Counted from the first letter of the stretch, positions 35,778-42,050 are shown. The stretch: DNA of 64,000 bases from an uncultured Candidatus Bathyarchaeia archaeon (GCA_964608455.1 CAZSNM010000001.1:11030-75029), one strand, 5' to 3'. Translations and numbers: made by a program. Notes: generated by a model not told the origin, from the sequence alone.

Positions 35778-36569
35778 ATGCATTTGAAATTCTCGATTTG
35801 GGTTTCCCCAAAATTAAGAAAAGCTTATCTTCAACTTTCAAAAAAATTAAAATCCTCTTATGCTGACTTAATTTTGCTTCCTTTTCCTAAACGTCTTACA
35901 ATATTTTTAAAAGATTTAATTAATGGAGCCCCGTATGATCTATTTCTTAAAAAGATTGTTGAAGAAGAAAAAATTTTTTATTCAATTAACATATTTAACT
36001 ATTTTTATGAAGAAATTTTAAAGGTATGCAAGGAATTAAAGAAAATAAATCCAAAACTTGAGTTAAATTGTTATAAAGAAGATGAAAATATGCTTTTTCA
36101 AATTCAATCGGCTGTAAAATTTTCTATTTTAACTTTTAAAGCTGCTTCTACAAGTAAAATAAATTTAGATGAATGGCTTCATGTATTAACTGAAAATTTA
36201 AGGGAAACCAAAGAATATTTAGATAGAGAAACTGAATTCATAGAAAAGCAAGCTCAAAAATATGATAATATTATATGTTTAGCCAATTTTGAGGGGAAAT
36301 ATTATTTTCAACATTTAAAAAATAAGTTTCCTGTGGAAATTCAATATTTTGCTCTTCCATATCATTTTACTCCATTAGAAATTTTAACTACATTTTTAAA
36401 TCTTAAAAGGGAAATAGATGATGAAAAAATTATGCAGTTTATTAAATCTCACATAGATTACATTAGAAACTATGTTCTTACATGCGATAATTTAGATGAA
36501 GCCTATGAAAAATGGGTTAATGAAAATGTTAATTGGATTAATGCATGGAAAAAATTTAAAAATAATTGA
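35778..36569 (+). CDS. Hypothetical protein (263 aa) immediately upstream of the cdv cluster
   Basis: Intact ORF with no motif I recognise. The composition is that of a soluble, Lys/Glu-rich protein. Confidence 0.4.
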   Translation: MHLKFSIWVSPKLRKAYLQLSKKLKSSYADLILLPFPKRLTIFLKDLINGAPYDLFLKKIVEEEKIFYSINIFNYFYEEILKVCKELKKINPKLELNCYKEDENMLFQIQSAVKFSILTFKAASTSKINLDEWLHVLTENLRETKEYLDRETEFIEKQAQKYDNIICLANFEGKYYFQHLKNKFPVEIQYFALPYHFTPLEILTTFLNLKREIDDEKIMQFIKSHIDYIRNYVLTCDNLDEAYEKWVNENVNWINAWKKFKNN

Positions 36570-36805: not shown

Positions 36806-37459
36806 TTGTCAAAAAGGATAATCAAAAGTTGGAATGGTTCAGACTCTATATTTACAAGATTTAGTGAGAAAATCCGCGGTAGAAAACCAACTCTTAAAGA
36901 AAAAGTTTCTCAAGCCATTTATCGATTAAAAGTTCAAAGAACTAAGCTGGAAAATGCTGCTGCTAGAATAGAAAATCATGATAAATCTTTATTTGAAAAA
37001 ATTGTTAAAGCTCAAATGGCTAAAGACTCTGCTAGAGCCATAATGTATGCTAATGAATGCGTGGAATTAAGAAAAATTGCAAAAACAACTTTACGTTGTC
37101 AATTAGCTCTTGAAAAAGTTCTTTTAAGGCTTGAGACAATTAAAGATTTTGGTGATGTTGCATCGCTTATGGCGCCTGTAGTAGATGTTGTTCAAGCAAT
37201 AAAAACTGAAATTTCAGGTATTATGCCTGAAGTAGCTTTTGAACTTGGTGAAGTTGGAGAAGTGTTAGGGGACGTTGTAACTGAAATGGGTGAAGCTGCT
37301 GGAATAGGCGAGGAGGACCTTCATCCATCAAGTGAAGCTATGAAAATAATTGAGGAAGCTAACGCTGTAGCTGAGCAAAAAATGAAGGAAAAATTCCCAG
37401 AATTACCTTTACAAGTTGCACCAAATCTAGAGGAATCTTCAGCTACAAAATTAAAGTAG
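36806..37459 (+). CDS. ESCRT-III (Snf7/CdvB-family) paralog
   Basis: Conserved ESCRT-III core shared with the two other paralogs (SQAIYRL...YANEC(A/V)E(I/L)RKIAK...QLALEKV). The C-terminus has a KFPELP proline motif (MIM2-like). TTG start behind GGAGGT. Confidence 0.8.
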   Translation: MSKRIIKSWNGSDSIFTRFSEKIRGRKPTLKEKVSQAIYRLKVQRTKLENAAARIENHDKSLFEKIVKAQMAKDSARAIMYANECVELRKIAKTTLRCQLALEKVLLRLETIKDFGDVASLMAPVVDVVQAIKTEISGIMPEVAFELGEVGEVLGDVVTEMGEAAGIGEEDLHPSSEAMKIIEEANAVAEQKMKEKFPELPLQVAPNLEESSATKLK

Positions 37460-37470
37460 AGGTTAAAAAA

Positions 37471-38145
37471 TTGAATATTGAAGAAGCCAAAAATAATATT
37501 GGAAAAGAAGTTTTTGACTCTAGAGGAAGAAAAATTGGTAGATTAATATCTTTTTGCACAGACCTTAGGGGGAACCCTATTAAATTCTTAATAGAGCTTG
37601 TTACTGGTGACTTCATTCAATGTACTGTTGAGCAGCTTCAGCAAAAGGAAAACGTTTTAACTTATCTTTATTCATGGGAAGTTAATGCTAATAACTTAAA
37701 GAATAGATTTGATTTAGTTTCAAGAAGAATTAAAGCTTTAGAAGAGCTTTATGCCAATGGTGAAATAGAAAAAGAAATTTATTTAGAGCTTAAAAACAGG
37801 CATGAAAGCTCTTTGGAAGAATTAGAGGAGCAAAGAAAACTTTTAATAGATAAACTTTATGAAAGAAAAACCAAACTGGATCTTAAAATAAAAGCTTTGG
37901 AACTTTTCTTAGCTAATAGCAAAATGCAGCAATCTTCAGGAGAAATTAGTGGGGAAGCCTTTAAAGTAGCTCTAGAATCAATAAATATTGGATTGAAAAG
38001 AGCAATCTCAGAAAGAAATTATATTAAAGAAATGGTTGACTTCTTAAGCAATGTTAAAATTTCAAGCGTTACTTCCTTAAAAACTCCAGGTTTAAAGCCT
38101 CTAACTGAAGATGTTGTTTTAGTTAAGTTAAAAGAACCAACTTAA
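37471..38145 (+). CDS. cdvA: CdvA-like protein (PRC-barrel + coiled coil)
   Basis: The N-terminus NIGKEVFDSRGRKIGRLISF is PRC-barrel-like and is followed by a long heptad-rich region. The gene is positioned directly upstream of the wH-containing ESCRT-III and Vps4, as in cdvABC operons. TTG start. Confidence 0.65.
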   Translation: MNIEEAKNNIGKEVFDSRGRKIGRLISFCTDLRGNPIKFLIELVTGDFIQCTVEQLQQKENVLTYLYSWEVNANNLKNRFDLVSRRIKALEELYANGEIEKEIYLELKNRHESSLEELEEQRKLLIDKLYERKTKLDLKIKALELFLANSKMQQSSGEISGEAFKVALESINIGLKRAISERNYIKEMVDFLSNVKISSVTSLKTPGLKPLTEDVVLVKLKEPT

Positions 38146-38160
38146 AAGGAGGATTAAACT

Positions 38161-38937
38161 ATTTCAATAATTCGAAAAATAAGCAGTAAATTTAAACCTA
38201 CACCATTAAAAGAAAAGATTTCCCAAGCGATTTATAGGCTTGATGCTCAAAAAGAAAAGCTTGAACAAATGAGTTTTCTTCTTCAACAAAGAGATAGGGA
38301 AATGTTTCAAAAATGTATTGAAGCTCAATTTGCTAGAGATATTCCAAGAGCTAGAATTTATGCTAATGAATGTGCTGAAATAAGAAAAATTGCTAGAATA
38401 GTATTAAGCAGTCAATTAGCTTTAGAAAGAGTTATTTTAAGGCTTCAAACAATCGAGCAGTTTGGAGAAGTTCTTACTCAAATAGCACCTGTAATAGATG
38501 TGGTTGAGGAAATGAAAGATAAAGTATCAGGCTTAATTCCTGAAGTTGCTAATGAACTTGATCAAGTAAATTCAATGCTTAGAGATATGAGTTTAGAAGC
38601 TGGAGAAATCGAATCTGAAAATATAGATGTTGAAGCAGCTAATGAGGAAGCTAAAAAAATAATGTTGGAATCCATGGCTATTGCTGAAGAAAAAATGAAA
38701 GAAACATTTCCAGATATTAAAGATTTACAAATGAGTAAAATGAGGGTCATTCCAATTTCTGAAGGGGGAGAAGATTTAAAAAGAATGAATCTTGAAGAAC
38801 TTGTTTTAGAATATATTAAAAGCAACAATGGTTACTTAAGCATTTCTAAATGCGCTTCAACATTAGGTGTTTCACCAAAAAAAATTAAGGAAACTGTAGA
38901 GAAATTAAAAAACAATGGGAAAATAATTTTTGAGTAA
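38161..38937 (+). CDS. cdvB: CdvB (ESCRT-III with C-terminal winged-helix domain). The N-terminus is probably extended upstream of the ATG at 38269 used by the ORF track.
   Basis: ESCRT-III core plus a C-terminal wH-like segment, LEELVLEYIKSNNGYLSISKCASTLGVSPKKIKETVEKLKNNGKIIFE. In-frame sequence upstream of the ATG (ISIIRKISSKFKPTPLKEKISQAIYRL) aligns with the N-termini of both paralogs. AGGAGGA lies 8 nt before an ATT codon at 38161. Confidence 0.7.
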   Translation: MSIIRKISSKFKPTPLKEKISQAIYRLDAQKEKLEQMSFLLQQRDREMFQKCIEAQFARDIPRARIYANECAEIRKIARIVLSSQLALERVILRLQTIEQFGEVLTQIAPVIDVVEEMKDKVSGLIPEVANELDQVNSMLRDMSLEAGEIESENIDVEAANEEAKKIMLESMAIAEEKMKETFPDIKDLQMSKMRVIPISEGGEDLKRMNLEELVLEYIKSNNGYLSISKCASTLGVSPKKIKETVEKLKNNGKIIFE

Positions 38938-38939
38938 AG

Positions 38940-40085
38940 GTGATTTATAAAATGGTTTTATCTGCTTCTGAAGAGCTTGAGAAAATGGCTGCTAAATATG
39001 CTAATGAAGCAATTCAATTAGATGGGCAAGGTTCAAAAGGAATGGCTATTTCACGCTATCAAAGAGCTATAGAAATTCTTTTAAAATTAACCTCTTTATA
39101 CCCTGACTCTCCCCAAACCAAAGTTTACTTAACTAGGATAGAAGCCTATCAAAAAAGGATTAAAGAATTAAGGGAATCACCAGTTTCTTTAGGAAGTCAA
39201 AGTTTTGAAGCAGCAACATTTAATCAACTTGTTATTTCTGAAAAACCTAATGTTAAATGGAGTGATATAGCAGATTTAGAGGAGGCTAAAAAAGCGATAG
39301 AGGAATCTATTATTTTCCCAGTTAAAAGACCTGATTTATTTCCTTTAGGTTGGCCAAGAGGCATCCTCTTTTTTGGTCCGCCTGGATGCGGAAAAACATT
39401 GCTTGCAGCTGCTGTAGCTACAGAAATAGATGCAGCATTTTATTGTGTTGACTCTGCCTCAATAATGTCTAAGTGGCTTGGAGAATCAGAGAAAAATGTA
39501 GCACAGCTTTTTGCTGAAGCACGAAATAAAGCCTCCTCCGGTCAACCAGCAATAATATTTCTTGATGAAATAGATTCTTTAATTGGTAAAAGAAGCAATG
39601 AAATTGGTGGAGAAATTAGAACTAGGAACCAGTTTTTAAAGGAGATGGATGGACTTCTAGATAAAAAGAAAAATCTTCATGTTTATGTAATTGGGGCAAC
39701 AAATAAACCTTGGGCTTTAGATGATGCATTTATAAGAAGATTTCAAAAAAGAATTTACATTCCCCTTCCAGATTATAATGCTAGACTTGAACTCTTTAAA
39801 ATTTATACAAGAGAAATTAAGCTTTCTCCAGAAGTTGACCTTAAATATCTAGCTAAAATTACAGAAGGTTATTCAGGAAGCGATATTAGAGATATTATTC
39901 AAGCAGCTCAGTTAGAAGTTGTTAGAGAATTTTTTGAAAAAGGAAATCCCAATGATAAACACGCTCTTCCAAAACCTGTAAGCATGGGAAATTTTATTAA
40001 TGCTTTAAGAAAAAGAAAACCAAGTGTCTCCTTTAATTTAACCAAAAATTATCTTTCTTGGTTTGAGGTTTATGGAGCAATATGA
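38940..40085 (+). CDS. cdvC: Vps4-like AAA+ ATPase (CdvC). The true start is possibly the ATG at 38952.
   Basis: N-terminal MIT domain (EELEKMAAKYANEAIQLD...AIEILLKL). Walker A GPPGCGKTLLA and Walker B IIFLDEIDS. Confidence 0.92.
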   Translation: MIYKMVLSASEELEKMAAKYANEAIQLDGQGSKGMAISRYQRAIEILLKLTSLYPDSPQTKVYLTRIEAYQKRIKELRESPVSLGSQSFEAATFNQLVISEKPNVKWSDIADLEEAKKAIEESIIFPVKRPDLFPLGWPRGILFFGPPGCGKTLLAAAVATEIDAAFYCVDSASIMSKWLGESEKNVAQLFAEARNKASSGQPAIIFLDEIDSLIGKRSNEIGGEIRTRNQFLKEMDGLLDKKKNLHVYVIGATNKPWALDDAFIRRFQKRIYIPLPDYNARLELFKIYTREIKLSPEVDLKYLAKITEGYSGSDIRDIIQAAQLEVVREFFEKGNPNDKHALPKPVSMGNFINALRKRKPSVSFNLTKNYLSWFEVYGAI

Positions 40086-40708
40086 AAAGAGGAGGGTTAA
40101 AATTGTTTAAAGAAAGAAAATCTTTTACGGAAAAATTAAGAGAATCCATTCATCCCACACCTTTAAGAAAAAAAATTTCTTTAACGTTAACCTCATTAAA
40201 AATTCAATTGAAAAGATTGGAGAATGCAGCTTATAGACTTGAGCAAAGAGATAAAATTCTTTATGGAAAATGTGTTTCAGCCTTGCAAAAAGGTGATAAA
40301 TATTTAGCTTCTCTTTACGCTAATGAATGTGCTGAAATAAGAAAAATTGCTAAAATAACTTTAACAAGTCAATTAGCTTTAGAAAAAGTAACTTTAAAAC
40401 TTGAAACAATAAGAGACTTTGGTGATATAGCTTACTCAATGAATTCAGTTACATCTATAATTGGAATGTTAAAAGATGGATTAAGAAACTTAATGCCTGA
40501 CATTTCTATGAAACTTGATGAAGTAAATGAAGATTTGCAAAGTTTAGTTATTGAAATGGGAGAAACAACTGATCAAGGGATAGATTTGGAAAGTGCAAGT
40601 GAAGATTCTAGAAAAATAATTGAAGAAGCAACCATTGTAGCTGAGCAAAAAATGAAGGAAAAATTCCCAGAGCTGCCTGTAATAGCAGCAAAAGAAACAA
40701 AAATTTGA
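40082..40708 (+). CDS. ESCRT-III (Snf7/CdvB-family) paralog
   Basis: Same conserved core as the other paralogs. The C-terminus AEQKMKEKFPELP is identical to that of the 36806 paralog. The start overlaps the Vps4 stop. Confidence 0.8.
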   Translation: MKRGGLKLFKERKSFTEKLRESIHPTPLRKKISLTLTSLKIQLKRLENAAYRLEQRDKILYGKCVSALQKGDKYLASLYANECAEIRKIAKITLTSQLALEKVTLKLETIRDFGDIAYSMNSVTSIIGMLKDGLRNLMPDISMKLDEVNEDLQSLVIEMGETTDQGIDLESASEDSRKIIEEATIVAEQKMKEKFPELPVIAAKETKI

Positions 40709-42050
40709 ACCTTAATGCTTTTCCCTATTTTTGTATAAACTCCTAAGGTTTTTTGAATTTTAAATTCCTCAAATTCTTTATTCTGTTTAGCATCATCATT
40801 AAAAAGTAATAATTTTCCATAAACTCCATCATGACCGCTAACATATTTTATTTCATTATTTCTTATCTTTAATATAACCTCAACTATTCGCTCATTTGTA
40901 ACTTTAATTAACTCATCTTTTGAAGCATTCAATAAAACATTTATTTCATTTTTAAATTTTTTAATTAAGCTCCAATATTCGCTCCATACTGTTTGCGAAT
41001 AAACAATTTAACTTATATACTTTAGCTATTATCTCCATTAAAGGAATAAGATGCTTAAATGGAATATACTCTTTTGGAATAAAACTTTCAGGTCTATCTG
41101 CAAGCTCTTCAACTCTTTGTAAAACACCAATAGTTAATTTTCTTCTGCATTTTGGACAAATATTATTAACTTTTATAGCTTCCTTCGGGTGAAAGCTAAC
41201 ATTGCATTTTCTATGGCCTGAAAAATGATATTTACCTGCTTCCGGAAAAATTTCCCCGGTCATAACAAGTTTTGATTTATCCTTATTTTTTATAGCTTCA
41301 TAAATTTCTTTAAATGAAATTTTATTAACTTTAAAACTGTAAATTCCCTTCCTAATCTTAAAGGGTTGGATGTATGAGAATCTGAAAAAGATACAAGCGT
41401 ATATTTATCAAGCTTACTTATTCTAAAAGCCATTGAAGGATCGCTTGAAAGGCCTGTTTCAAGAGCATAAATATGTTTTGATTTTTCTTGAAAACATTCC
41501 TCAATACTATTAAAACCTGATTTGAAACCTAAAACTCCAAACCATGGTGTAAAATAATGAGCTGGAATTATCAAAATATTTTTTGAAATGCTCATTAAAA
41601 TTTCTACAAATTCCATGCAATTCATTTCATTAAAGGTTGGTCATCCATCAGCTTTTAAATCACCAAACATTTCAAGTTTTTCATTAATTTGATCTACTAT
41701 CTCAAAGTTTTCAGCTAAAATTAAATTATGAACCCTTCTAATTACTCCATTAAATTTATAAATAATTGCATACTTCTGCGGAGAGAATAAATAAACTTCT
41801 CTCCCCCTCTAGTTTTAAAAATTCCTTCCCCATCAACTTCAAAGAGATTAGCTTTTAATTCTTTTAACCATTTTGGATGAGTAAAATCACCAGTTCCAAG
41901 CATATTAATTCCTTTTAATTTAGCATTTTCCTCTAAAATTATTAATTGTAATGTCTTTGCTTGCTGCACGACTAAGAGGAGAGTGAATATGAAGATCAGA
42001 ATAAATTAAACTCAATTCTTCATCAAACCAATTGAACCGCTAAAATTTAA
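40709..42050 (-). pseudogene. Disrupted endonuclease Q-like PHP-domain nuclease gene (frameshifted into at least 4 reading-frame pieces)
   Basis: Minus-strand translation gives ...YSDLHIHSPLSRAASKDIT in one frame, then LEENAKLKGINMLGTGDFTHPKW in another. Further pieces follow: IPAHYFTPWFGV...SDSHT, then a zinc-finger piece NICPKCRRKLTIGVLQRVEEL, then ...SGHDGVYGKLLLF. Together these resemble EndoQ-type proteins broken by frameshifts. No canonical start codon precedes DLHIHS. Confidence 0.5.

What the first reader, a model, noticed from the sequence alone, without database searches (positions are those of the whole stretch)
38146..38271. CdvB (wH-containing ESCRT-III) appears to initiate upstream of its first ATG, probably at a non-canonical ATT codon
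The 108 nt upstream of ATG 38269 are in frame and have no stop back to TAA at 38155-57. They encode TISIIRKISSKFKPTPLKEKISQAIYRLDAQKEKLEQ, which aligns with the conserved N-terminal helix of both paralogs (..IIKSW..RFSEKIRGRKPTLKEKVSQAIYRLKVQ.. and ..HPTPLRKKISLTLTSLKIQ..). There is no ATG/GTG/TTG in this stretch. A strong AGGAGGA (38146-52) sits 8 nt before ATT at 38161. Starting at the annotated ATG would delete the basic N-terminal helix that ESCRT-III proteins need for membrane binding. The alternatives are non-AUG (AUU) initiation, a frameshift or sequencing error, or a truncated gene.
Basis: seen in the sequence. Interest (0 to 1): 0.55.

Follow-up and report, generated by a model that had tools for sequence, protein, structure and literature searches.

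The report
CdvB gene with non-canonical start codon
The main cell-division ESCRT-III gene (cdvB) of this low-GC Bathyarchaeia archaeon has no ATG/GTG/TTG from which its conserved, selected N-terminus could be made, so translation most likely begins at an AUU codon 8 nt after a strong ribosome-binding site; public annotations of this clade therefore cut 36-47 residues off the protein.

Summary
From the in-frame TAA (38155-57) to ATG 38269 the frame is open and has no ATG/GTG/TTG. It encodes TISIIRKISSKFKPTPLKEKISQAIYRLDAQKEKLEQ.

It is not a sequencing error, a pseudogene or a truncated gene. Eleven independent assemblies in five sequence lineages (73-99% protein identity) show the same arrangement. 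The 36-codon extension evolves at dN/dS 0.02-0.29, against 0.05-0.10 for the core. It holds 4 of the protein's 22 invariant columns. In the predicted structure ATG 38269 lies in the middle of helix alpha1 (residues 16-57).

A CdvA-CdvB fusion by readthrough or frameshift is excluded, because the frame relation differs between strains.

Coding conservation begins at ATT 38161 (ATC in sister strains), 8 nt after a conserved AAGGAGG that abuts the cdvA stop. ATT is the only near-cognate codon between the TAA and the conserved Ser codon.

Other Bathyarchaeia cdvB lineages show the same pattern. Three clusters have CTG where orthologs have ATG or GTG, and two have only ATC.

Best reading: Shine-Dalgarno-directed initiation at AUU/AUC, inferred and not demonstrated. 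This is a new member of a known kind, with moderate interest and a practical annotation fix.

The parts
37471..38145 (+). cdvA (TTG start, 224 aa). Its TAA stop (38143-45) abuts the cdvB Shine-Dalgarno sequence.
   Evidence: Pfam CdvA PF18822, E=1.1e-17. The TTG start and GAGGT SD are conserved in all five lineages of the clade.
38146..38153 (+). Shine-Dalgarno sequence AAGGAGGA (core GGAGG at 38148-52), directly after the cdvA stop.
   Evidence: AAAGGAGG is conserved in all relatives, including the 73%-identical L014 whose flanks have diverged. The 8-nt spacer equals that of the P. abyssi aEF1A model mRNA GGAGGUGAUUUAAAUG (PMC6237735).
38155..38157 (+). In-frame TAA that bounds the cdvB reading frame upstream.
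   Evidence: It is present in the four close lineages.
38161..38163 (+). ATT, the proposed non-canonical initiation codon (ATC in L005/L006/L016 and L010-12; ATT in L007-9, L014, L015).
   Evidence: It is the only near-cognate codon between TAA 38155 and the conserved Ser codon 38164, which varies only synonymously (TCA/TCG/TCC). Similarity to L014 starts here. The spacer from the SD is 8 nt in this window and 10 nt in L014.
38161..38268 (+). N-terminal 36 codons missed by gene callers: the ISIIRKISSKF peptide plus the first half of helix alpha1.
   Evidence: dN/dS 0.02-0.29; variable columns by codon position 3:14, 1:3, 2:2. Invariant L16, L27, Q30 and L34 in a 43-sequence alignment. AF2 places helix alpha1 at residues 16-57.
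38269..38271 (+). Internal ATG (Met37), the start chosen by Prodigal/JGI-type callers. PGAP chose Met48 in relatives.
   Evidence: It has no SD upstream and lies in the middle of helix alpha1.
38161..38937 (+). Full cdvB (ESCRT-III core plus C-terminal winged helix), 258 codons plus stop.
   Evidence: PDB profile hits to CdvB2 9s97 (E=2.6e-63) and CdvB 9s9j (E=4.1e-45). Foldseek hits to the same entries and to the CdvB winged helix 2xvc (TMt 0.76).
36806..37459 (+). cdvB paralog 1 (TTG start, GGAGGT SD, no winged helix).
   Evidence: Pfam Snf7, E=2.4e-6. TTG conserved in relatives.
38952..40085 (+). cdvC/Vps4 (ATG start, AGGTGA SD 8 nt upstream).
   Evidence: Pfam MIT + AAA + AAA_lid_3 above their cut-offs, plus a weak Vps4_C hit (19 bits, below its 21.3-bit cut-off). 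Start context.
40103..40708 (+). cdvB paralog 3 (TTG start 7 nt after GAGGAGGG; an alternative ATG at 40082 overlaps the cdvC stop).
   Evidence: Orthologs start MFKERKS at the equivalent codon.

Best explanation
The winged-helix CdvB of this Bathyarchaeia lineage is made as a full-length protein of about 258 residues. Its translation starts at a non-canonical, near-cognate codon: AUU at 38161 here, AUC in sister strains. The gene is an internal cistron of the cdv operon (cdvB-paralog, cdvA, cdvB, cdvC, cdvB-paralog).

A strong Shine-Dalgarno sequence (AAGGAGG) sits immediately after the cdvA stop codon and pre-positions the 30S pre-initiation complex. No AUG, GUG or UUG lies within reach in any frame, and the region is unstructured. 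Initiator Met-tRNA would therefore pair with AUU (two of three bases) 8 nt downstream, giving an N-terminus of the form M-S-I-I-R-K.

Ribosomes terminating on cdvA 15 nt upstream may add to the local supply by partial termination-reinitiation. The expected result is low and possibly tunable CdvB output relative to CdvA, sensitive to the start-codon fidelity factor aIF1.

Shown: the extension is coding and under selection, no canonical start exists, the SD and its spacing are conserved, and the boundary of conservation falls at the AUH codon. Inferred: that initiation happens at this codon, that Met is inserted, and any regulatory purpose.
For: 1. The same start-less arrangement occurs in 11 independent assemblies of five lineages at 73-99% protein identity.
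2. Extension dN/dS is 0.02-0.29, against 0.05-0.10 for the core. Binomial P for the excess of synonymous changes goes down to 4e-6 (window vs L010) and is below 0.01 in five of six pairs (0.093 in the sixth). Variation is concentrated at third codon positions.
3. The extension aligns with the N-termini of more than 40 orthologs that have canonical starts 0-3 residues upstream of the residue aligned with I38161. It holds four invariant columns.
4. AF2 places Met37 inside helix alpha1 (residues 16-57; pLDDT 88-97 for residues 21-70). Deleting 15 N-terminal residues of Sulfolobus CdvB abolishes membrane binding in vitro (PMC12818579).
5. AAAGGAGG is conserved while its flanks diverge. The spacer to the AUH codon is 8 nt (10 in L014), within the 3-13 nt range of this window's SD-led genes.
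6. The Ser codon after ATT varies only synonymously. Upstream of ATT there is no similarity to L014, and the length differs by 2 nt.
7. The same boundary pattern is seen in other Bathyarchaeia cdvB lineages. CTG lies 8-9 nt after AGGAGG where orthologs have ATG or GTG (L026-29, L033, L034). In L024 and L032 the only candidate is ATC.
8. The initiation region is unstructured (MFE -4.6 kcal/mol, z = +0.78).
9. There is a literature precedent for an inferred archaeal ATT start next to an RBS, in Asgard AtubA (PMC13394414). About 30% of putative alternative initiation sites in H. volcanii Ribo-seq were near-cognate codons (PMC7261190).
Against: There is no direct evidence of initiation: no Ribo-seq, no N-terminal peptides, no reporter assay. 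Reviews list only AUG, GUG and UUG as archaeal start codons (PMC7531240). In the S. solfataricus system aIF1 discriminates against AUU (PMC4705826), so efficiency may be very low for what should be an abundant division protein. The candidate codon wobbles between ATT and ATC, and two further Ile codons (ATA 38167, ATT 38170) follow, so the exact codon cannot be fixed by sequence alone. The 16S anti-SD of this organism was not available to check. GGAGG is not rare in this window (88 occurrences on both strands, many inside genes).
Confidence: 0.72

Rival explanations
1. Initiation is non-canonical but uses one of the following Ile codons (ATA 38167 or ATT 38170) rather than ATT 38161.
For: Both are near-cognate codons. 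ATA 38167 aligns with the Met of the 'MFRK...' ortholog clade. Local scanning of initiator tRNA around the SD-positioned site is described for archaea (PMC6237735).
Against: The spacers are 14 and 17 nt, outside the 3-13 nt range seen for SD-led genes in this window. The Ser codon 38164 upstream of them shows only synonymous variation and is conserved in orthologs, so it appears to be translated.
Confidence: 0.1
2. The protein really starts at ATG 38269 (or both forms are made), and the upstream 108 nt is a 5' leader kept for another reason.
For: ATG 38269 is the first canonical start and is conserved in the clade. Gene callers choose it. Some internal initiation cannot be excluded.
Against: The upstream codons show codon-position-specific purifying selection as strong as in the core. 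They contain invariant family residues. There is no SD before 38269. The product would lack half of alpha1 and the membrane-binding N-terminus.
Confidence: 0.08
3. The extension is translated as a CdvA-CdvB fusion, by readthrough of the cdvA stop or by frameshifting.
For: In this window cdvA and cdvB are in the same frame, separated only by TAA-AAG-GAG-GAT-TAA.
Against: It would need readthrough of two TAA codons. In L005-L012 and L016 a 1-nt difference puts cdvA in another frame, and the TAA before ACC/ACT remains. In L014 the frames also differ. There is therefore no conserved recoding geometry.
Confidence: 0.02
4. A sequencing or assembly error, or a recent inactivating mutation, destroyed the start codon, leaving a pseudogene.
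For: The same window contains a clearly decayed gene at 40573-41969(-). Lesions, or errors, therefore do occur in this sequence.
Against: The identical arrangement is found in 11 independent assemblies from JGI, NCBI MAGs and Logan, including a 73%-identical lineage. dN/dS is far below 1.
Confidence: 0.01

Closest known systems
AUU-initiated bacterial genes (E. coli infC/IF3, pcnB)
   Same: A near-cognate AUU start stands behind a Shine-Dalgarno sequence and is conserved among relatives. Output is expected to be low and to depend on the start-codon fidelity factor (IF3 in bacteria, aIF1 in archaea; review PMC4705826).
   Different: This is an archaeal initiation system (aIF1/aIF2, non-formylated Met-tRNAi). 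The gene encodes a division protein, not the fidelity factor itself, so no autoregulatory loop is evident. The codon alternates between AUU and AUC among strains.
Inferred ATT start of Asgard (Kariarchaeaceae) tubulin AtubA
   Same: An archaeal cytoskeletal gene whose database entry is N-terminally truncated. An upstream ATT restores a conserved N-terminus and places an RBS at a plausible distance (PMC13394414).
   Different: That case rests on one operon and a structural argument. Here there is multi-lineage conservation, dN/dS evidence and parallel cases (CTG, ATC) in sister clades. Neither case has been verified in the native host.
Sulfolobus CdvB (ESCRT-III with a winged helix that binds CdvA; PDB 9s9j/9s9k, 2xvc) and CdvB2 (9s97)
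   Same: ESCRT-III core plus a C-terminal winged helix, encoded next to cdvA and cdvC/vps4. A short N-terminal amphipathic segment precedes alpha1.
   Different: Sequence identity is 31-41% in the Foldseek alignments to the solved chains. The operon order differs and there are two winged-helix-less paralogs. The start codon is non-canonical. In Sulfolobus the annotation problems were over-long N-termini (CdvB1), not truncations.
Near-cognate initiation sites in the Haloferax volcanii ribosome-profiling data
   Same: It is evidence that archaeal ribosomes can occupy near-cognate codons as initiation sites; about 30% of putative alternative sites were of this kind (PMC7261190).
   Different: Those sites were not analysed further and mostly represent alternative or minor sites. 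Here the near-cognate codon would be the sole start of an essential-type gene.

Membership tests
CdvB (archaeal ESCRT-III with C-terminal winged helix) | ESCRT-III core (alpha1-alpha2 hairpin plus alpha3-5) | tested here: met
   Profile of alignment A2 against PDB: CdvB2 9s97 E=2.6e-63, CdvB 9s9j E=4.1e-45. Foldseek top hits are the same entries. AF2 helices at 16-57, 61-122, 127-146 and 157-182. Pfam Snf7 itself is not hit by this protein, only by the paralogs.
CdvB (archaeal ESCRT-III with C-terminal winged helix) | C-terminal winged-helix domain (the CdvA-binding module) | tested here: met
   AF2 helices at 211-251. Foldseek hit to 2xvc_A, the CdvB winged helix, with TMt 0.76 and rmsd 2.4 over 51 columns. 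Relatives carry a faint PF27303 CdvB_HTH hit. Binding to CdvA was not tested.
CdvB (archaeal ESCRT-III with C-terminal winged helix) | Genomic linkage with cdvA and cdvC/vps4 | tested here: met
   cdvA lies immediately upstream and cdvC immediately downstream. The same order is found in all related loci.
CdvB (archaeal ESCRT-III with C-terminal winged helix) | Short N-terminal amphipathic, membrane-binding segment before alpha1 | tested here: inconclusive
   The sequence (M/I)SIIRKISSKF exists only if the extension is translated. AF2 gives low confidence for residues 1-11. The functional requirement is known from Sulfolobus (PMC12818579) and was not tested here.
Genes with a non-canonical (near-cognate) initiation codon | Conserved coding sequence extends upstream of the first ATG/GTG/TTG, bounded by a stop with no canonical start in between | tested here: met
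Genes with a non-canonical (near-cognate) initiation codon | A near-cognate codon at proper spacing from a ribosome-binding site, conserved among relatives | tested here: met
   AAGGAGG, then 8 nt, then ATT/ATC in four lineages, and 10 nt in L014. The anti-SD of this organism was not available.
Genes with a non-canonical (near-cognate) initiation codon | Direct demonstration of initiation at that codon (N-terminal peptide, TIS profiling, toeprint or reporter) | not testable with these tools
   No expression data are available for this uncultured lineage.
infC-type autoregulatory AUU start | The gene product controls discrimination against its own start codon | tested here: not met
   The product is an ESCRT-III protein, not an initiation factor. 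Only the sensitivity to a fidelity factor could be analogous, and that is an inference.
Programmed recoding (stop readthrough or frameshift fusion with the upstream gene) | Conserved frame relation and recoding signal between the upstream ORF and the extension | tested here: not met
   The frame relation changes between strains through a 1-nt indel. Two TAA codons intervene in this window.
Pseudogene or assembly artefact | Relaxed selection, or a lesion not reproduced in independent assemblies | tested here: not met
   dN/dS 0.02-0.29 and 11 concordant assemblies.

The most novel reading that the evidence does not exclude
Loss of the canonical cdvB start codon is recurrent and adaptive in Bathyarchaeia: AUU/AUC in this clade, AUC in a second, and CUG in three clusters of a third, always behind a strong SD that abuts the cdvA stop. 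Near-cognate initiation would make synthesis of the division-ring ESCRT-III depend on start-codon stringency (aIF1 level or activity). That would be an archaeal counterpart of infC-type control, gating or setting the dose of CdvB relative to CdvA during the cell cycle.
Probability: 0.15. Interest if true: 0.75.

Novelty: new member of a known kind. Interest (0 to 1): 0.5.

Why it matters
1. Annotation. Every public gene call for this clade's CdvB is truncated: JGI/Prodigal gives 222 aa, and NCBI PGAP gives 211 aa labelled 'hypothetical protein'. Both lack the membrane-binding N-terminus and half of helix alpha1, so anyone expressing or modelling these entries would work with a crippled protein. 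The same applies to the CTG and ATC lineages.

2. Translation biology. Archaeal start codons are taken to be AUG, GUG and UUG, and aIF1 rejects AUU in vitro. A naturally conserved AUU/AUC (and CUG) start on an SD-led mRNA is a ready test substrate for archaeal start-codon fidelity.

3. Gene finding. Standard callers cannot see such genes. The 'conservation boundary plus SD' logic used here could be applied systematically.

4. Cell division. If the weak start sets CdvB dosage, it bears on how the CdvA:CdvB stoichiometry is controlled outside the Sulfolobales.

Tried and rejected
- Sequencing error or pseudogene: rejected by 11 concordant assemblies and by dN/dS.
- CdvA-CdvB readthrough or frameshift fusion: rejected because the frame relation differs between strains and two TAA codons intervene.
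- A canonical start in another frame followed by a frameshift: no ATG/GTG/TTG in any frame for 87 nt after the SD.
- An RNA structure or known RNA family at the site: the fold is no better than shuffles (z = +0.78), and there are no Rfam hits or tRNAs in the whole window.
- A genome-wide habit of start-less genes: among 74 long open frames in the window, only cdvB combines a long pre-start stretch with an SD and homology.
- Pfam on the extended against the truncated protein was uninformative, because Snf7 is not hit by this paralog in either form.
- The genome contigs and metagenome-contig scans returned few extra close relatives: L015, L016, and otherwise distant paralogs with ordinary ATG/GTG starts.
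- A tally of start letters (M or V) in database proteins was abandoned, because sources differ in how they write GTG starts. P0116 (V) and P0117 (M) are otherwise identical; L030 has a GTG start, yet the protein it encodes, P0007, is written with M.
- Termination-reinitiation as the sole mechanism was judged unlikely. The 15-nt gap lies in the range where coupling drops by 40-80% (PMC10666635).

Full report
**Context.** The window is about 30% G+C. Positions 36.8-40.7 kb carry a cdv operon on the + strand:

| Gene | Coordinates | Start |
|---|---|---|
| ESCRT-III paralog, no winged helix | 36806-37459 | TTG |
| cdvA | 37471-38145 | TTG |
| cdvB with winged helix | ATG 38269 to 38937 | see below |
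| cdvC/vps4 | 38952-40085 | ATG |
| second paralog, no winged helix | 40103-40708 | TTG |

The closest database proteins are labelled Candidatus Bathyarchaeia.

**The observation.** TAA 38155-57 is in frame with ATG 38269. The 37 intervening codons have no stop and no ATG/GTG/TTG. They encode TISIIRKISSKFKPTPLKEKISQAIYRLDAQKEKLEQ. AAGGAGGA lies at 38146-53, directly after the cdvA stop (38143-45) and 8 nt before ATT 38161.

**Is it an error, a relic or real coding sequence?** The three nearest protein clusters (92-95% identity) are all called as 222 or 211 aa, starting at internal Met codons. I fetched their DNA from JGI metagenomes, NCBI MAGs and Logan assemblies. I also fetched a 73%-identical, GC-richer relative (L014) and two further metagenome loci (L015, L016). 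All eleven loci, in five sequence lineages, have the same open upstream frame. None has a canonical start; L014 has only a TTG at the Leu of 'APL', a codon that is TTA in the other lineages.

Between the four close lineages the 36-codon extension has Nei-Gojobori dN/dS of 0.02-0.29, against 0.05-0.10 for the 222-codon core. Fourteen of its 19 variable columns are at third codon positions. Binomial tests for an excess of synonymous change reach 4e-6. Against L014, nearly every synonymous site has changed while the peptide is retained (AISIIRKIGDKFRSAPLEERIAQAIYRLNVQKEKLEQ). The extension is therefore translated in this frame. Sequencing error, pseudogene and 'truncated gene' are excluded.

**Is the extension part of the family's conserved protein?** In a 43-sequence alignment with more distant Bathyarchaeia orthologs (46-57% identity) and the two in-window paralogs, four of the 22 invariant columns (L16, L27, Q30, L34, with I38161 as residue 1) lie in the extension. 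Orthologs with canonical starts begin 0-3 residues upstream of the residue aligned with I1, for example MPFSIIKK, MAAISFLRK and MVSISIIHK. In one clade they begin two residues downstream (MFRK).

AlphaFold2 on this alignment gives mean pLDDT 74.8, and 88-97 for residues 21-70. Helix alpha1 spans residues 16-57, so Met37 (ATG 38269) is in the middle of the helix. The model and the profile match solved CdvB2 and CdvB structures and the CdvB winged helix. For Sulfolobus CdvB, removing 15 N-terminal residues abolishes liposome binding (PMC12818579). A protein starting at 38269 would lack that segment and half of alpha1.

**How is the extension translated?** Readthrough or frameshift from cdvA is excluded. 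cdvA and cdvB share a frame in this window and in L015, but only because of one extra A (TAAAAGG against TAAAGG). In the other strains the frames differ, and a TAA still precedes the Thr-Ile codons. No canonical triplet occurs in any frame for 87 nt after the SD, so a start in another frame followed by a shift is also out.

What remains is initiation at a near-cognate codon. Several observations locate it:

- AAAGGAGG is conserved in all lineages while the flanking bases diverge.
- The distance from GGAGG to the first Ile codon is 8 nt (10 nt in L014). This lies within the 3-13 nt range of SD-led genes in this window, and it equals the spacing in the P. abyssi aEF1A model mRNA.
- Upstream of that Ile codon there is no similarity between the close lineages and L014, and the length differs by 2 nt.
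- Downstream, conservation is at the protein level.
- The next codon, Ser, is TCA, TCG or TCC and is conserved in orthologs, so it is translated.
- The only near-cognate codon between TAA 38155 and Ser 38164 is ATT 38161, since ACT differs from ATG at two positions.
- The codon is ATT in three lineages and ATC in two, so any AUH appears acceptable.
- The region is unstructured.

cdvA termination 15 nt upstream could contribute reinitiating ribosomes. At such distances, however, coupling is already reduced by 40-80% in tested systems (PMC10666635). I therefore regard independent SD-led initiation as the main route.

**Wider pattern.** The situation is not confined to this clade.

- In L024 and L032 (clusters P0008 and P0015) the conserved ISII(D/H)KIEG segment begins with ATC, with no canonical codon before an ATG 13 codons later. 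Their nearest relatives, P0018 and P0064 (77-83% identity), start M-x-S-ISIIHK.
- In L026-29, L033 and L034 (clusters P0033, P0108 and P0024), CTG lies 8-9 nt after AGGAGG exactly where orthologs have ATG (P0022, 92% identical to P0033) or GTG (P0027, 86% identical to P0108).
- The eight codons after that CTG (LFRKLEER) differ mostly synonymously, while the bases before it are unrelated.
- Many orthologs use GTG.
- Within the present clade, cdvA and paralog 1 always use TTG, while cdvC and paralog 3 flip between ATG and TTG.

Weak starts are thus the rule in these operons, and cdvB has repeatedly moved to near-cognate codons. Whether this is selected (dosage or regulation) or merely tolerated is open.

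**Comparison with what is known.** AUU starts are classical in bacteria (infC; review PMC4705826). For archaea, reviews list only AUG, GUG and UUG (PMC7531240), and aIF1 discriminates against AUU in vitro. H. volcanii ribosome profiling saw near-cognate sites but set them aside (PMC7261190). A 2026 paper inferred an ATT start for an Asgard tubulin on similar grounds (PMC13394414). I found no paper on cdvB start codons in Bathyarchaeia. The finding is therefore a new, comparatively well-supported member of a known kind. It is not a new mechanism, and it is not experimentally verified.

**Verdict.** Observation confirmed; interpretation supported. Confidence that the extension is translated from a non-canonical start at or next to 38161 is about 0.8. 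Confidence that the codon is ATT 38161 itself is about 0.7. Interest is moderate (0.5): a concrete annotation correction for a central division protein and a natural test case for archaeal start-codon fidelity.

Noticed in passing
L026-L029 (codon at about 1477), L033 (about 406), L034 (about 253): In three other Bathyarchaeia cdvB clusters (P0033, P0108, P0024) a CTG lies 8-9 nt after AGGAGG exactly where orthologs have ATG or GTG (MFRKLEER / VFRKLEER). Gene callers start 8 codons later. The 8 codons after the CTG differ mostly synonymously between loci, and the bases before it are unrelated.
   Followed up: partly
L024 920-949; L032 about 571-600: A further cdvB clade (P0008/9/11, P0015) encodes the conserved ISII(D/H)KIEG N-terminus starting with ATC, with no canonical start before the called ATG. 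Relatives at 77-83% identity (P0018, P0064) have an ATG three codons upstream.
   Followed up: partly
window 40573-41969 (-): The gene downstream of the cdv operon (PHP-type, Pfam MJ0043_C; intact at 424-427 aa in L005 and L010) is broken in this window into four ORF pieces. There are at least two to three frame changes and an in-frame stop (ADG*PTFN against ADGRPIFN). It is either a decayed pseudogene or a low-quality stretch of the assembly.
   Followed up: partly
window 38143-38157: The cdvA stop and cdvB are in the same frame here and in L015 (TAA AAG GAG GAT TAA) because of one extra A relative to the other strains. This is a coincidence, not a recoding signal.
   Followed up: yes
window 40082-40105: The third ESCRT-III paralog has two candidate starts. 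ATG 40082 overlaps the cdvC stop as ATGA, the classic coupling overlap. TTG 40103 lies 7 nt after GAGGAGGG. Orthologs start at the equivalent of 40103 (MFKERKS; ATG in L005/L007/L010, TTG in L014), and the ATGA overlap is absent from them.
   Followed up: partly
window 36806, 37471; L005/L007/L010/L014 equivalents: TTG starts of cdvA and of ESCRT-III paralog 1 are conserved throughout the clade (paralog 1 could not be checked in L014). cdvC and paralog 3 switch between ATG and TTG among strains. In a crude survey, 10 of 23 SD-associated starts in the window are TTG.
   Followed up: partly
L010-L012 3001-3636 (NCBI GCA_038859405.1, GCA_038873515.1, GCA_038883535.1): PGAP calls this cdvB as a 211-aa 'hypothetical protein' starting at Met48 (MFQKC...), even shorter than the 222-aa Prodigal/JGI call. 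Public entries of the clade are thus truncated by 36-47 residues.
   Followed up: yes
window 35778-36569 (+): A 263-aa ORF with no Pfam hit on record in relatives (257 aa there) is conserved immediately upstream of the cdv genes, after an RNase Z/beta-lactamase-fold gene. It may belong to the same conserved neighbourhood. Its function is unknown.
   Followed up: no
window 1-64000: No tRNA genes and no Rfam family at gathering threshold in the whole 64 kb.
   Followed up: yes
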